From a virus (lineage: Duplodnaviria > Caudoviricetes): a stretch of DNA of 64,000 nt. Made by a program: the position numbers and the translations under genes. Positions 8,702 through 46,292 of this stretch are shown one piece after another; position 1 is the stretch's first letter; each line of letters opens with the position of its first letter. The DNA lies in IMG/VR virus record IMGVR_UViG_3300037247_001786, positions 1 through 64,000 of that record, one strand, 5' to 3'. The notes under the pieces were generated by a model. It worked only from the letters and a program-made list of their open reading frames with translations. It was not told where the DNA came from and ran no database searches.

Positions 8702-9478
8702 CTACTTATACAATTCTTCATAATCTACATACTCTATTATTTTATCTGGAACAAGATATTTCACAGATAATCCTCGCTTTACCCTCTCCCTAACCATTGA
8801 AGAAGATATTTCAATAATTGGAGTATCTACATATTCAATATGCATATTATCCATTATCTCTTTTTCTTCGTCTGTCCCATCAAAGAGGGAATTACTTGTT
8901 TTTCTCTTTGCTACGGCAAAACGAACTTCTTTTACAAAATCAGCGGCTTTATACCATTTTGGAATCTCTTTGATATTATCCTCTCCGATTACCCAATAGA
9001 CTTCTTCCATCTTTTTATGTAATTCTTGTTTGATCCAAACGGCGGTATCAGAGGAATAACTGAAGCCCTCTCTATTAAACTCGCAATCACAGACTTCAAA
9101 TAAATATTCATCTTCAACTGCTTGTTTAACCATCTCTAGACGGTCTGCCGCTGGAGTGATGTCGTGCTTATAAGGGTGTTTGCCAGAAGGAATAAGAATA
9201 ACCCTATCTATCCCTAGCTCCTCTGCAATTGTTCGACAAGCAATAAGATGACCGTTATGTATCGGGTCGAAAGTTCCCCCAAAGATAAGAACTCTTTCAG
9301 AGATAGACAAAGCTTCCCTACTCGAATAAACACTATTAGCAGAGACTCCGCAACCACCGCCTACTCTGATATCATTGCCCCTTATTTCATAGACTTTCAA
9401 TCTTCTATTGGAACTATGAACCCTGTCATAAACTGGCATCCCTACTCTTATCTTTTTTCCATCTGCTGTATGAGCCAT
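8702..9478 (-). CDS. nadD: Nicotinate-nucleotide adenylyltransferase with ~60-aa N-terminal extension
   Basis: IFGGTFDPIHNGHL (HxGH), PSGKHPYK, SYSSDT, IGEDNI..IPKWY, ISSSMVRERV. Confidence 0.92.
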   Translation of the reverse strand: MAHTADGKKIRVGMPVYDRVHSSNRRLKVYEIRGNDIRVGGGCGVSANSVYSSREALSISERVLIFGGTFDPIHNGHLIACRTIAEELGIDRVILIPSGKHPYKHDITPAADRLEMVKQAVEDEYLFEVCDCEFNREGFSYSSDTAVWIKQELHKKMEEVYWVIGEDNIKEIPKWYKAADFVKEVRFAVAKRKTSNSLFDGTDEEKEIMDNMHIEYVDTPIIEISSSMVRERVKRGLSVKYLVPDKIIEYVDYEELYK

Positions 9479-9489
9479 TTTTCTACTTT

Positions 9490-10236
9490 CTAATTATCTG
9501 TTATGTCTATTGCACTATCTGGTCCATCTGTTTGCATTGTTGGAGGATTATCCTCTAAATCTATATTCTCGAAGAAATCCACTTCGTTATTGACATTGGC
9601 TGTTGATATCCCCTTAGTATTGGCTTGGGAATAGCTCTGTGCTCTACCGTAACGTGCTTGCGACATTGAGGTGAATGCTCTCGTCGTTCCTTCTACCCCA
9701 GCGTCATACGCCATCGTGTTGCCTCTGGAGATACCCATAGCTTCTGCTACATTAAAGACATCATCCCCACAACCTACGAAAGCAACTGTCCACTGTCCTG
9801 CTTCTTGAATTTCTTCGATAAGTTCTTTGACTTGACTGCCGGAATACTCTCTTGAAACGTTTTCTGATCCATCTGTGAAAATAGTTACAACTACATTGGC
9901 ACTTCTTGACGCCAGTTCGTCTTTGATTTGATCTTTAAGCTTATCGATTCCCATACCAACCGCGTCATATAGGGCTGTCATTCCTCCAGGAGCATAAGAT
10001 GTTTGATTGAAATCTTCTATATCGGTTATCTTACTATTCCAAATTTGATCAGTATCTACGTTATTGTTAAAAGTAACAAAACAGACTATTTGTTCTTGAT
10101 CTAAGAAGTCTTCTTCAGCCTTCTTAATTGACCCCAATTGTTCGTTTAAGCCTGAGATAGTTACATCTCTGACGCTGCCCATCGAACCGCTTTTGTCTAA
10201 AATCATTAAATGATACGTTTTTTGTTTTTTACTCAT
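9490..10236 (-). CDS. vWA domain protein
   Basis: MIDAS ILDKSGSM, GGMTALYDA, IFTDGSEN. Confidence 0.88.
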   Translation of the reverse strand: MSKKQKTYHLMILDKSGSMGSVRDVTISGLNEQLGSIKKAEEDFLDQEQIVCFVTFNNNVDTDQIWNSKITDIEDFNQTSYAPGGMTALYDAVGMGIDKLKDQIKDELASRSANVVVTIFTDGSENVSREYSGSQVKELIEEIQEAGQWTVAFVGCGDDVFNVAEAMGISRGNTMAYDAGVEGTTRAFTSMSQARYGRAQSYSQANTKGISTANVNNEVDFFENIDLEDNPPTMQTDGPDSAIDITDN

Positions 10237-10282
10237 AAGATTACTCTCCTTTTACTAAACTTTTACTCTTCTCTAACTCTAT

Positions 10283-10311
10283 ATGATAACTAACATAGTT
10301 ATCACTTTCAA
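10283..10311 (-). promoter_or_regulatory. Sigma70-type promoter, TTGAAA-GTGAT...-TATCAT
   Basis: On the minus strand: TTGAAA gtgataactatgttagt TATCAT, upstream of the vWA gene. Confidence 0.6.
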
Positions 10312-10319
10312 CACATTTT

Positions 10320-44013: not shown

Positions 44014-44655
44014 TTACCATGTCTTAATTTTTAAAGTATCTTTTTCTCTGTAGTAACCTTTTACAGTGTCATATTCATGGTCTGTATCTGCCCATATATT
44101 TTCAGACATTAAACCGATATGATTTTCCATATCTTCTTTTTTTATCTGCCCTGCTTTAATGGCTATTTCCATAGCCTCTGCCCTATCTACAAATTTATGT
44201 TCCGAGGTAAGAAATCCTTGTGTTTGCCCGAGCTTTTCGAAATATCCTTTAGGGGCTTTTTCAAATATTGCAGGATGATCTCTATCGATAAGTATATTCC
44301 CACCATCTGTTTTAATAGCTGCGTGGATTATTTCTAAGATATTTATTTCTTTCCAGTAGTCTTTAAATTCATGTTCAGATTGTAGTATATCTTTAATCTC
44401 TCTTTCTTCATATTTATCAACCCACCTCGACCAGTAATGGTCGATTTTTTCACCAGCCAGTGCCCATTTTAAATCATTAAAAACCAAAGAAAATAAATGG
44501 TTCTGATGGTTTTTCAATAAATCAGAACCATCTTGATGATGTTCCCAACAATTATGTATCCTTGCAACTGTGAACAATAATTTATTTTTCATTATATTCA
44601 TTTTATTTCTTTTCCGTTGTCCCGTCACTAATTCCCGTATCTTTGAGGAACTCAT
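44014..44655 (-). CDS. Phage hypothetical protein (true start probably downstream of 44655)
   Basis: C-terminal QGFLTSEHKFVDRAEA...AGQI...SENIW motif typical of phage hypothetical proteins. Confidence 0.6.
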   Translation of the reverse strand: MSSSKIRELVTGQRKRNKMNIMKNKLLFTVARIHNCWEHHQDGSDLLKNHQNHLFSLVFNDLKWALAGEKIDHYWSRWVDKYEEREIKDILQSEHEFKDYWKEINILEIIHAAIKTDGGNILIDRDHPAIFEKAPKGYFEKLGQTQGFLTSEHKFVDRAEAMEIAIKAGQIKKEDMENHIGLMSENIWADTDHEYDTVKGYYREKDTLKIKTW

Positions 44656-45007
44656 CTACATTATCAGAGACGATACCTTTTCCAGATTCTAACTCTTCTA
44701 TAGCTTTTTCTGTTACTTCTTTTTCTTTTAGCTCTTTCATATCAATGTTCTCCGATATTATCGTTTTATATTCTTCTTCTGTTATTTCGGTCATCCCCTC
44801 TGCCGAAGGTGAATAGTAATGAGGATTATAATCTTTAAGATTTTTCCACTCTACTCTCCATTTTCTAGGAGTTTTTTCGTCATCAGGTTGGTATTTCGCA
44901 AGGAATTTTTCAGGCTTTTTACTTCCTCTATATATCAATTCTTTGTATCCATAAAAAGGAGCGTGTCCTCCTGTTTCAAATCTTTCTTTAAGATACCAGT
45001 ATGTCAT
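44603..45007 (-). CDS. Hypothetical protein
   Basis: ORF downstream of the promoter at 45047-45074. Confidence 0.6.
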   Translation of the reverse strand: MTYWYLKERFETGGHAPFYGYKELIYRGSKKPEKFLAKYQPDDEKTPRKWRVEWKNLKDYNPHYYSPSAEGMTEITEEEYKTIISENIDMKELKEKEVTEKAIEELESGKGIVSDNVDEFLKDTGISDGTTEKK

Positions 45008-45046
45008 ATTTCATTCCTTTAAAATTTATTAACTTTTCATAGTTGT

Positions 45047-45074
45047 ATTCTACCAAAATAAAAATCACTTTCAA
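45047..45074 (-). promoter_or_regulatory. Sigma70-type promoter upstream of the 45007-to-nadE gene run
   Basis: TTGAAA gtgatttttattttgg TAGAAT. Confidence 0.6.
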
Positions 45075-45098
45075 CCAAAAATTCTCAATTCTTTTAAC

Positions 45099-46292
45099 TT
45101 ATCCCGTAGCAGGAGGGAAACTTTCCCATAAAGGTTTATTTTGGAAAGTCCATTGAGCAACCGCTACAGCATCGCTGTCTCCCATTACTTTACCAAGAAC
45201 ATCTGATAGCTTAACAACTGGTATGCCATTAACGCTCCACAATTTAATTACCATATTTAAAGATGGGCTATCTGCAAAGTCATTTGAAAAGTGAGTTCCT
45301 ATGCCAAATGAATATTTAATTTTACCTTCACAATATTTTGCTATTGCGATAGCTTTATCGACATCTAGTCCATCGCTAAATACAATGATTTTAGACATAG
45401 GGTCTATTCCCATTTTTTTATAATGGGCAATTGTCTTATCTGCGAAAGCAATCGGGCAACCGCTGTCATGTCGGACACCATCATAAAGCTTTGAAAGTCT
45501 CTTGTTAAAGTTATCAAAGAAGGCATCGCTTCCAAAAGTATCCGTAAGAGCAATACCCAAATCTGTATTGTAAACTCTAACCCAATTTTGCAAAGTATGA
45601 TAATTAGCATGTCTTAAACCTTCAAGAGCAGACATAGCCATAAATAGTTCGTGAGCCATCGTTCCAATAGGAGTTAGCCCATATTTCATAGCAAGATACA
45701 TATTGCTTGTACCTACTAATGTAGACTTTGGACAATATGGTCCTGTAGAATTTAGTCCGAGAAGTGCGGTTTCTTGACTTTTAAAACTGCGTCTTCTCCG
45801 GGTCGCAAAGCCAGCATAATTACAATTATGTGCAGCAAGTATTGTTCCTTTTTCAAAAGCTCTGGCAGCTTGACCATCATAATTCCAATTAGTATCAATG
45901 ATTTGAAAATACAATTCACTGATTATTGCCATAAGGGGGACTTCCCAAAGGATTGTATCTCTCCATAATCCATTAATCTTTACAACCAAATCATTATCCT
46001 CTAAATGACATTCTACATCATTCGGATTATAACGAAAGTTTTTTAGATATTCCGCATAAGATGGTTTAAAAAAAGAAATACTCTTAATCCAATTATATTC
46101 ATTATCTGTTAATGACAGTTGTCCCATCATCATTATTTCTTGTTTTAATCGCTTTAACAATTCTACATTAAATCTTTGTTTCCCCCGATTTTTAAACCGA
46201 TATTCAACCTGAGCATCTGGGAACAGTTCAACCACAAATTGCATCATACTCATTTTATAAAGATCATTATCTAACATACTTTCAATTATCAT
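45099..46292 (-). CDS. pncB: Nicotinate phosphoribosyltransferase
   Basis: LDNDLYKMSM, WEVPLMAIISE, FATRRRRS, GTSN, GTMAHE, ALTDT, GVRHDSG, VFSDGL, GIGT, KLSD..GK. Confidence 0.95.
   Translation of the reverse strand: MIIESMLDNDLYKMSMMQFVVELFPDAQVEYRFKNRGKQRFNVELLKRLKQEIMMMGQLSLTDNEYNWIKSISFFKPSYAEYLKNFRYNPNDVECHLEDNDLVVKINGLWRDTILWEVPLMAIISELYFQIIDTNWNYDGQAARAFEKGTILAAHNCNYAGFATRRRRSFKSQETALLGLNSTGPYCPKSTLVGTSNMYLAMKYGLTPIGTMAHELFMAMSALEGLRHANYHTLQNWVRVYNTDLGIALTDTFGSDAFFDNFNKRLSKLYDGVRHDSGCPIAFADKTIAHYKKMGIDPMSKIIVFSDGLDVDKAIAIAKYCEGKIKYSFGIGTHFSNDFADSPSLNMVIKLWSVNGIPVVKLSDVLGKVMGDSDAVAVAQWTFQNKPLWESFPPATG

What the first reader, a model, noticed from the sequence alone, without database searches (positions are those of the whole stretch)
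8702..46292. Complete four-enzyme deamidating NAD+ salvage route (PncA, PncB, NadD, NadE) on a phage: candidate third way to rebuild NAD+
Seen: nicotinamidase (22646..23458), nicotinate PRTase (45099..46292), NaMN adenylyltransferase (8702..9478) and NH3-dependent NAD synthetase (42801..43580), each with its catalytic motifs, all on the minus strand. NAD users or readers are also present: LigA, an ART-like protein and a macro domain. Established: these four steps convert nicotinamide to NAD+ via nicotinate, NaMN and NaAD. Bacterial defences such as Thoeris and SIR2/TIR-type effectors cleave NAD+ to nicotinamide plus ADPR. The described phage counter-pathways NARP1 and NARP2 are two-enzyme amidated routes and do not use this chemistry. 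Inference: this is an anti-defence or ligase-support NAD reconstitution pathway distinct from NARP1/2. Caveats: the genes are dispersed rather than in an operon, and PRPP must come from the host or from a gene outside the window.
Basis: partly seen in the sequence, partly recalled or inferred. Interest (0 to 1): 0.8.

Follow-up and report, generated by a model that had tools for sequence, protein, structure and literature searches.

The report
Huge-phage nicotinamide-to-NAD recycling pathway
A 461-kb marine-sediment phage encodes all four enzymes that turn nicotinamide back into NAD+, a gene set already reported for jumbo phages; its first enzyme belongs to a divergent family that almost always sits next to a vWA protein, a phosphatase and a kinase, a link I found in no paper.

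Summary
PncB, NadD and NadE score above curated cut-offs at the stated coordinates. The PncA-like protein misses Pfam, but its fold, catalytic triad, metal ligands and gene context all say nicotinamidase. The replicon is a complete 461-kb phage with terminal repeats and a portal gene. It has no Prs, NAMPT, NadR/NadM, PnuC or PncC, so this is its only NAD route.

"Third way" is taken: NARP3 is PnuC+NadR (2026). Complete Preiss-Handler sets in jumbo phages, with the same untested counter-defence idea, were published in 2024. About 7 of 35 large viral records with this PncA-like gene carry all four enzymes. In some relatives the genes are clustered.

The PncA-like gene heads a four-gene unit: PncA-like, MIDAS vWA protein, PP2C phosphatase, and Ser/Thr kinase fused to a beta-propeller. 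This unit is present in about 74 of 80 viral loci and 56 of 83 cellular ones. PncB, NadE and NadD are often interleaved in it, and NrtR often lies beside it in bacteria. I found no paper describing it. This scan has noted the same cassette before on other DNA (169 notes, at least 120 genomes).

Function is inferred, not shown.

The parts
8702..9478 (-). NadD, nicotinate-mononucleotide adenylyltransferase (step 3), with a ~60-aa N-terminal extension
   Evidence: NF000840 169.8 bits (cut-off 150), TIGR00482 169.3 (cut-off 112), PF01467 92.6 bits. It is the only HIGH-type nucleotidyltransferase in the genome.
9490..10236 (-). Second TerY-like vWA protein (VWA2), directly upstream of NadD
   Evidence: Weak VWA_2 hit. 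Full MIDAS motif D14/S16/S18, T87, D122 read from the sequence. Local similarity to VWA1, E 1e-8. Promoter-like site at 10311-10283.
18998..20698 (-). Ser/Thr kinase fused to a C-terminal beta-propeller (cassette gene 4)
   Evidence: Pkinase 34.6 bits. K36, D131, N136 and D150 are invariant in 27 orthologues. ePK hits in the PDB. C-terminal 299 aa model has pLDDT 91.9, is all-beta, and matches WD40-type propellers at TM ~0.5.
20719..21645 (-). PP2C-type phosphatase (cassette gene 3)
   Evidence: PF13672 PP2C_2 55.1 bits (cut-off 24). Orthologue present in 74 of 80 viral loci.
21727..22485 (-). TerY-like vWA protein with MIDAS site and conserved Ser/Gln-rich C-terminal tail (cassette gene 2)
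   Evidence: VWA_2 23.3 bits, just under cut-off. D45, S49, T115 and D151 plus tail serines are invariant in 27 orthologues. Lies directly after the PncA-like gene in 75 of 80 viral and 56 of 83 cellular loci.
22646..23458 (-). Divergent 270-aa nicotinamidase (PncA-like; step 1; cassette gene 1)
   Evidence: fold, triad, metal site. Lies directly next to pncB in bacteria that lack the triad.
23511..23538 (-). Sigma-70-like promoter match in the 123-nt gap upstream of the PncA-like gene
   Evidence: TTGAAA-16-TATAAT with a TG extension, 11 of 12. No good terminator match on this strand before the end of the kinase gene. This is a consensus match only.
24414..26564 (-). NAD-dependent DNA ligase LigA (NAD consumer, releases NMN)
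   Evidence: Adenylation, OB, HhH and BRCT domains. NF005932 349.5 bits over the full model. Upstream of the cassette also in L002, L084 and L159.
27076..27693 (-). NUDIX hydrolase, substrate not assignable
   Evidence: PF00293 92-93 bits. No NCBIfam equivalog reached its cut-off. A NUDIX-LigA pair also occurs in L002.
38733..39137 (-). Probable ADP-ribosyltransferase (ART-PolyVal-like), an NAD consumer that releases nicotinamide
   Evidence: PF18760 29.4 bits, E 1.6e-6, just under the 31.2 cut-off.
42801..43580 (-). NadE, NH3-dependent NAD synthetase (step 4)
   Evidence: NF010587 267.6 bits (cut-off 255), PF02540 253 bits, phrog_11189. 259 aa with no glutaminase domain.
45099..46292 (-). PncB, nicotinate phosphoribosyltransferase (step 2)
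   Evidence: NF003704 479.8 bits (cut-off 379), TIGR01514 436 bits. It is the only NAPRTase-family gene in the genome.
48169..48687 (+). Macro domain protein (ADP-ribose binding or removal)
   Evidence: PF01661 28.9-29.5 bits (cut-off 22).

Best explanation
The phage encodes a working deamidating NAD+ recycling route. The PncA-like enzyme hydrolyses nicotinamide to nicotinate. PncB joins nicotinate to host PRPP to give NaMN. NadD adenylates NaMN to NaAD. NadE amidates NaAD with ammonia to give NAD+. Its most likely role is to keep the NAD+ pool up in the infected cell by recapturing nicotinamide. Nicotinamide is released by the phage's own NAD-consuming enzymes (PARP, Tpt1, ART-like) and by any host NADase, so buffering of NAD-depleting defences would be one consequence rather than the only purpose. 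The entry enzyme is part of a conserved four-gene unit (nicotinamidase, MIDAS vWA protein, PP2C phosphatase, kinase with a beta-propeller). This unit probably places nicotinamide recycling under a phosphorylation switch, with the propeller as sensor and the Ser-rich vWA tail as a candidate phospho-acceptor. Shown: gene presence, family membership, fold, conserved catalytic residues, conserved gene order, recurrence. Inferred: enzyme activities, flux to NAD+, timing, any regulation, any effect on defence.
For: Three enzymes score above curated cut-offs. The PncA-like fold, triad and metal site match nicotinamidases. PncA-like lies directly next to pncB in bacteria without the triad (L029, L033, L049, L058, L062, L079). 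The genome has no other NAD route and no Prs. NAD consumers and ADP-ribose handlers are in the same genome: LigA, PARP (93 bits), Tpt1 (176 bits), ARH (264 bits), two macro domains, two NUDIX genes. All four enzymes recur in about 7 of 35 large viral records with this PncA-like gene (G002, G009, G011, G015, G023, G032, G034). The nearest relative G034 keeps the same order PncB-NadE-PncA-NadD along the coding strand. NAD genes are interleaved with the triad in relatives, for example L133 PncA-vWA-PncB-NadE-PP2C-NadD-STK within ~9 kb, and L094, L125, L121, L128, L134. Cassette conservation is 75, 74 and 73 of 80 viral loci, with catalytic and MIDAS residues invariant. In 10 of 22 bacterial genomes with a strong NrtR-like hit, that gene lies inside the +/-10 kb cassette locus, and in 6 of these it lies within about 1.3 kb upstream of the PncA-like gene.
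Against: There is no biochemical or expression evidence. The PncA-like protein fails the Pfam and NCBIfam thresholds and carries insertions (about residues 60-115 and a C-terminal extension) that could change its substrate. In this genome the four genes are spread over 38 kb, not in one operon. Some complete phage genomes carry the cassette without PncB, NadD or NadE (for example G013, 412 kb), so the cassette does not need a phage-encoded downstream pathway. LigA's by-product NMN cannot enter this route without PncC, which is absent. The host is unknown, so I cannot say whether the route adds anything to host capacity.
Confidence: 0.62

Rival explanations
1. Dedicated counter-defence (a fourth 'NARP'): the route was selected mainly to rebuild NAD+ after TIR, SIR2 or other NADase effectors cleave it. 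The vWA/PP2C/kinase unit would switch it on when depletion is sensed.
For: Nicotinamide is the product of those effectors (established). NARP1-3 show that phages do rebuild NAD+ for this purpose. Li et al. 2024 proposed this for NAD-jumbo phages. The cassette is widespread in huge phages.
Against: Four ATP- and PRPP-dependent steps are slow and costly compared with the two-enzyme NARPs. The ADPR half of cleaved NAD+ is not recycled. The same cassette is chromosomal in many bacterial phyla, next to NrtR and pncB, which looks like housekeeping NAD homeostasis. The phage has many NAD consumers of its own. No rescue experiment exists.
Confidence: 0.2
2. Nicotinamide removal rather than NAD synthesis: the nicotinamidase cassette acts on its own to clear nicotinamide. 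This would relieve product inhibition of PARP, ART or sirtuin-type enzymes, or deny nicotinamide to competing phages that use NARP1 or NARP2. PncB, NadD and NadE would be an optional add-on.
For: Complete phage genomes carry the cassette but not the downstream enzymes (G013 and others). The cassette is much more constant than its link to PncB (75 versus 24 of 80 viral loci). TerY-P-like modules can be conflict systems (Gao 2020, as cited in PMC10542128). Yeast Pnc1 activates Sir2 by clearing nicotinamide (established knowledge).
Against: NAD-synthesis genes are repeatedly inserted inside the cassette. pncB is the direct neighbour when the triad is missing. No PADLOC model matches beyond generic kinase hits. 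Host PncB, NadD and NadE could serve phages that lack their own copies.
Confidence: 0.12
3. Not a phage feature: the contig is bacterial or chimeric, or the genes are passenger host genes with no role.
For: The enzymes are typical bacterial families. PncA-like copies move between cells and phages. Terminase_6N was not found.
Against: The genome has direct terminal repeats and CheckV 100%. It has a portal and a prohead-protease-like gene, inteins and homing endonucleases, and about 34% GC throughout. The window's PncA-like copy sits in an all-phage clade with 97% support. Gene order is shared with a 548-kb relative. All ORFs are intact.
Confidence: 0.03

Closest known systems
'NAD-jumbo phages' with Preiss-Handler genes (Li et al. 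2024, Microbiome, PMC11662467)
   Same: Phages over 200 kb that encode pncB, nadD and nadE together with NAD consumers such as LigA and PARP. Phage pncA is mentioned, and a counter-defence role is proposed but untested.
   Different: That work concerns gut phages and used KEGG-type annotation. It does not describe the divergent 270-aa nicotinamidase family, which Pfam misses here, and it does not describe the vWA/PP2C/kinase cassette. This phage comes from marine sediment.
NARP1 (Adps+Namat), NARP2 (Nampt+Nmnat), NARP3 (PnuC+NadR)
   Same: Phage-encoded rebuilding of NAD+ from breakdown products or precursors. NARP1 and NARP2 also start from nicotinamide.
   Different: Those are two-gene amidated routes with experimental proof. 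This is a four-step deamidated route through nicotinate, NaMN and NaAD. None of their components is present and there is no experimental proof.
Cellular nicotinamide salvage PncA-PncB-NadD-NadE (E. coli, Salmonella, yeast Pnc1/Npt1)
   Same: Same four reactions, and the same protein families for steps 2-4. Step 1 has the same fold, triad and metal site.
   Different: The step-1 enzyme is a long subfamily of about 265-270 aa with two insertions. It has under 20% identity to solved nicotinamidases and is tied to a signalling triad.
TerY-P triad (TerY-like vWA + PP2C + Ser/Thr kinase; Anantharaman, Iyer & Aravind 2012 and Gao et al. 2020, as summarised in PMC10542128)
   Same: Same three components in one gene neighbourhood. 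The vWA has a MIDAS site and the kinase and phosphatase keep their active-site residues.
   Different: The kinase carries a beta-propeller, not a zinc ribbon or OB fold. It is linked to a metabolic enzyme and NAD genes rather than to Ter, restriction or CoCoNuT genes. No PADLOC model matched beyond generic kinase hits.

Membership tests
Nicotinamidase (PncA/Pnc1) | Asp-Lys-Cys catalytic triad | tested here: met
   D10, K156 and C206 align with the triads of Mtb PncA and yeast Pnc1 and are invariant in 28 homologues.
Nicotinamidase (PncA/Pnc1) | Metal site (Asp + 2 His) that separates nicotinamidases from other isochorismatase-like hydrolases | tested here: met
   D53 and H55 (LDSH) and H122 (WPPHC) align with Pnc1 D51, H53 and H94 and are invariant. 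The genome's second isochorismatase gene (417.6 kb) lacks this site.
Nicotinamidase (PncA/Pnc1) | Isochorismatase-like fold, closest to solved nicotinamidases | tested here: met
   Model pLDDT 91.5. Foldseek ranks 1-16 are all nicotinamidases, E down to 4e-13.
Nicotinamidase (PncA/Pnc1) | Scores above the curated family cut-off (PF00857 / PRK11609) | tested here: not met
   No Pfam hit. PRK11609 gives 30 bits against a cut-off of 174. This is a divergent subfamily.
Nicotinamidase (PncA/Pnc1) | Hydrolyses nicotinamide to nicotinate | not testable with these tools
   Indirect support only: direct adjacency to pncB in several bacteria and to NAD genes in phages.
PncB (nicotinate phosphoribosyltransferase) | Equivalog or subfamily model above cut-off | tested here: met
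   NF003704 479.8 bits (cut-off 379) and TIGR01514 436 bits (cut-off 270).
NadD (NaMN adenylyltransferase) | Equivalog model above cut-off; preference for NaMN over NMN | tested here: inconclusive
   Family membership is met (NF000840 169.8 bits, cut-off 150; TIGR00482 169.3 bits, cut-off 112). Substrate preference cannot be read from the sequence.
NadE (NH3-dependent NAD synthetase) | NAD synthase domain above cut-off and no glutaminase domain | tested here: met
   NF010587 267.6 bits (cut-off 255). The 259-aa protein is covered end to end by PF02540.
NARP1 | PRPS-like Adps plus Nampt-like Namat | tested here: not met
   No PF13793 match in the genome. The only NAPRTase-family gene is PncB.
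NARP2 | Nampt (NadV) plus an NMN adenylyltransferase (NadM/NadR type) | tested here: not met
   The only NAPRTase-family gene is PncB. The only HIGH nucleotidyltransferase is NadD.
NARP3 | PnuC transporter plus NadR | tested here: not met
   No PF04973 match and no second adenylyltransferase.
NAD-jumbo phage (Li et al. 2024) | Phage over 200 kb with at least one complete NAD+ synthesis pathway | tested here: met
   A 461-kb complete phage carrying PncB, NadD and NadE plus a PncA-like enzyme.
TerY-P triad | TerY-like vWA with MIDAS, a PP2C phosphatase and a Ser/Thr kinase in one neighbourhood | tested here: met
   The order is conserved.
TerY-P triad | Kinase C-terminus is a zinc ribbon (classical) or an OB fold (defence version) | tested here: not met
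   The C-terminal 299 aa fold as a beta-propeller.
TerY-P triad | Match to catalogued defence-system models | tested here: not met
   PADLOC gave nothing for the PncA-like protein or the vWA, a marginal non-TerY hit for PP2C, and only generic kinase hits for the STK. I did not verify which TerY-P models that library holds.
Tailed phage | Virion hallmark genes and genome termini | tested here: met
   Portal phrog_16240 at E 1e-49 and a prohead-protease-like domain. Direct terminal repeats and CheckV 100% as recorded by IMG/VR. Terminase_6N was not found, so the terminase was not located.

The most novel reading that the evidence does not exclude
The nicotinamidase/vWA/PP2C/propeller-kinase unit is an undescribed signal-gated switch on NAD+ recycling, shared by huge phages and many bacterial phyla. 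In phages it would turn on a four-step deamidating rebuild of NAD+ when depletion or ADP-ribose signals appear. That would make it a regulated fourth NAD reconstitution pathway, and the first TerY-P-type phospho-switch wired to a metabolic enzyme.
Probability: 0.2. Interest if true: 0.75.

Novelty: new variant of a known kind. Interest (0 to 1): 0.5.

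Why it matters
NAD+ depletion is a common anti-phage strategy, and three phage rebuild routes have now been shown experimentally. 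A deamidating route has so far only been inferred from annotation. This genome is a clean test case: a complete phage whose only NAD pathway is that route. The more useful lead is the conserved cassette. If a kinase/phosphatase/vWA trio controls nicotinamidase, then NAD recycling in many bacteria and huge phages has a regulatory layer nobody has studied. That layer can be tested with ordinary biochemistry and E. coli genetics. If the pathway is simply housekeeping support for the phage's own NAD-consuming enzymes, the finding is an ordinary example of jumbo-phage metabolic autonomy.

Tried and rejected
- Megablast of the NadE-PncB region against GenBank phages gave no match.
- PHROGs gave nothing useful for NadD and only a weak hit for the PncA-like protein.
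- Complex prediction of PncA-like with the vWA protein returned 'no answer' (score 0.00). It is evidence neither for nor against binding.
- A profile of the vWA protein found no solved relative by sequence.
- Terminase_6N (PF03237) was not found in the genome. The terminase was not located, so phage identity rests on the portal, the terminal repeats and CheckV.
- PADLOC gave no defence-system assignment.
- I searched upstream of PncA-like genes for an NrtR-type operator or any conserved palindrome. Nothing appeared beyond AT-rich sequence and Shine-Dalgarno motifs, and the window copy has no palindrome.
- The window NUDIX is not NrtR: 19 bits, no HTH.
- The look-up of sequencing runs listed no RNA holder, so there is no expression evidence either way.
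- The supplementary tables of Li et al. 2024 are not held. I could not check how many of their phages have pncA together with pncB, nadD and nadE.
- I considered the second isochorismatase-family gene (genome 417,611-418,105) as the real nicotinamidase and rejected it. It has the D/K/C positions but no metal-site motif and no GxLxV motif.

Full report
**The four genes**

The window has intact minus-strand ORFs at all four stated positions. Three are clear. NadD (8702-9478) passes two NCBIfam equivalog cut-offs. NadE (42801-43580) passes NF010587 and is covered end to end by the NAD synthase domain; it has no glutaminase domain, so it is the NH3-dependent type. PncB (45099-46292) scores 480 bits against a cut-off of 379.

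The fourth is the weak point. The 270-aa 'PncA' has no Pfam hit and only 30 bits on the PncA model, whose cut-off is 174.

I therefore tested the PncA-like protein separately:
- It belongs to a large family: about 5,500 hits of roughly 265-275 aa, some labelled nicotinamidase by JGI.
- A profile of 28 members finds only nicotinamidases at the top of the PDB.
- An AlphaFold model (pLDDT 91.5) has nicotinamidases from Acinetobacter, yeast, Leishmania, Drosophila, Pyrococcus, M. tuberculosis and S. pneumoniae as its 16 best Foldseek matches.
- The catalytic Asp, Lys and Cys (D10, K156, C206) and the metal ligands (D53, H55, H122) align with those of Pnc1 and Mtb PncA, and are invariant in the family.
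- In bacteria the gene is often the direct neighbour of pncB.

I put the chance that it is a nicotinamidase at about 0.8. Activity itself is untested.

**Is it a phage, and is the route complete?**

The genome is one contig of 460,978 bp. IMG/VR records it as a virus with direct terminal repeats and 100% CheckV completeness. A portal gene (phrog_16240, E 1e-49) and a prohead-protease-like domain lie just past the window. Inteins, homing endonucleases and a phage-like gene content fill the window. The source is a marine sediment metagenome.

Whole-genome family searches found no Prs or Adps, no second NAPRTase-family gene (so no Nampt or Namat), no second adenylyltransferase (so no NadR or NadM), no PnuC and no PncC. 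So NARP1, NARP2 and NARP3 are absent. The deamidating route is the only NAD pathway encoded, and PRPP, ATP and ammonia must come from the host.

The genome also encodes many NAD users and ADP-ribose handlers:
- LigA
- a PARP
- Tpt1
- a near-threshold ART-PolyVal-like protein
- two macro domains
- an ADP-ribosylglycohydrolase
- two NUDIX genes

**What is already known**

A third pathway, NARP3 (PnuC + NadR), was published in August 2026 (PMC13464706), so 'third way' no longer applies.

More importantly, Li et al. 2024 (PMC11662467) reported that 174 of 668 gut jumbo phages carry complete salvage or Preiss-Handler pathways. They describe a pncB-nadD-nadE cluster, list LigA and PARP among phage NAD consumers, mention phage pncA, and propose counter-defence against Sir2-type NAD depletion. 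None of this was tested experimentally. The general idea is therefore published at the annotation level.

**Survey**

tblastn against 50,697 phage records found partial sets in other huge phages: PncA-like + PncB + NadE in LR756500 and LR756511, and PncB + NadD + NadE in LR756501.

In IMG/VR, at least 110 contigs encode the PncA-like protein. Among 35 such records of at least 100 kb:
- 17 have a full-score PncB
- about 13 have a full-length NadD
- 17 have a NadE above cut-off, and 4 more have weaker hits
- about 7 carry all four (G002, G009, G011, G015, G023, G032, G034)

The nearest relative, G034 (548 kb), has the four genes in the same order along the coding strand (PncB, NadE, PncA-like, NadD) and with similar spacing. 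The dispersed layout here is therefore conserved rather than accidental.

**The cassette**

Genomic context gave the main new result. In the window the minus strand reads: NUDIX, an ORF, LigA, three small ORFs, PncA-like, a 252-aa vWA protein, a PP2C phosphatase, and a 566-aa Ser/Thr kinase.

The order PncA-like, vWA, PP2C, kinase recurs widely:
- In 80 viral loci: vWA 75, PP2C 74, kinase 73.
- In 83 cellular or assembly loci: vWA 56, PP2C 41, kinase 51. PP2C is undercounted because it is divergent.
- The cellular loci come from many phyla.
- Protein lengths are nearly constant.

The vWA proteins keep a full MIDAS motif and an invariant Ser/Gln-rich tail. The kinase keeps all its catalytic residues. 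Its C-terminal 299 residues fold confidently as a beta-propeller.

In many phages PncB, NadE and NadD are inserted inside the cassette. L133 has all four enzymes and the triad within about 9 kb. A second vWA paralogue lies directly upstream of NadD in the window.

In bacteria, 10 of 22 genomes with a strong NrtR-like hit have that gene inside the cassette locus. In 6 of them it lies within about 1.3 kb upstream of the PncA-like gene, and in 2 just downstream of the kinase gene. That is far more than chance would give in genomes of 1-9 Mb.

A tree of 155 PncA-like proteins interleaves phage and cellular copies, so transfer has been repeated. The window's copy lies in a well-supported all-phage clade.

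The trio matches the TerY-P triad in composition (PMC10542128). It differs in the kinase C-terminus and in its partners, and no PADLOC model fits. My literature searches found no paper linking nicotinamidase to such a triad.

This scan has noted the same cassette many times on other DNA. I reached it here independently and my results agree with those notes.

**Reading**

The best-supported explanation is a functional deamidating nicotinamide-to-NAD+ route that sustains the NAD+ pool of the infected cell. Its entry step is tied to a probable phospho-switch.

I cannot decide here whether the main benefit is feeding the phage's own NAD consumers or countering host NADases. I favour general supply, with defence buffering as one consequence. 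LigA releases NMN, which this route cannot take up without PncC, so 'ligase support' holds only through the total NAD+ pool.

Complete phages that carry the cassette without the downstream enzymes (for example G013) keep open the rival reading that nicotinamide removal itself is the point.

All functional statements are inference. No expression data were found and the complex prediction gave no answer.

Noticed in passing
window 9490-10236 (-): A second TerY-like vWA protein with a full MIDAS motif lies 12 nt upstream of NadD. Homologues appear near the cassette in 9 viral loci. This hints that vWA proteins pair with more than one NAD enzyme.
   Followed up: partly
window 46289-47041 (-): A GIY-YIG/NUMOD homing endonuclease gene overlaps the start of pncB by 4 nt.
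   Followed up: no
window 4581-6662 (+) and 49625-53308 (+): There are inteins in a papain-like cysteine protease (with HNH) and in the ribonucleotide reductase large subunit (with LAGLIDADG).
   Followed up: no
window 41273-42733 (-): A 486-aa protein with a weak sacsin/HATPase_c_3-like N-terminal ATP-binding domain lies directly downstream of NadE. Three ORFs with no family lie between NadE and PncB.
   Followed up: no
window 18621-18977 (-): A small DUF2059 protein lies just after the kinase gene. It is conserved at the same position in the two nearest IMG/VR relatives, L084 and L159.
   Followed up: no
genome 417,611-418,105 (+): A second, short isochorismatase-family gene passes the Pfam cut-off (31.9 bits). 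It has no nicotinamidase metal site, and its substrate is unknown.
   Followed up: partly
window 32164-32253 (-): ARAGORN calls a 90-nt tRNA-Phe with anticodon AAA, which is unusually long, near two tRNA-Gly genes.
   Followed up: no
LR756501.1 (735,411 bp): 31,115-31,720 and 428,581-431,429: The largest published phage genome has PncB-like and NadE-like genes side by side, plus a NadD-like gene. Li et al. 2024 credit it only with nadD.
   Followed up: no
Bacillus phage G, JN638751 205.5-207.3 kb: A NadD-like gene (gp281) and NadE (gp283) sit next to an RNA 2'-phosphotransferase (Tpt1, gp280), which is an NAD consumer.
   Followed up: no
window 2105-3811 (+), 36646-38436 (-), 47262-48107 (+): There are two PcfJ-like proteins and a complete sigma-70-family factor (regions 2, 3 and 4).
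   Followed up: no
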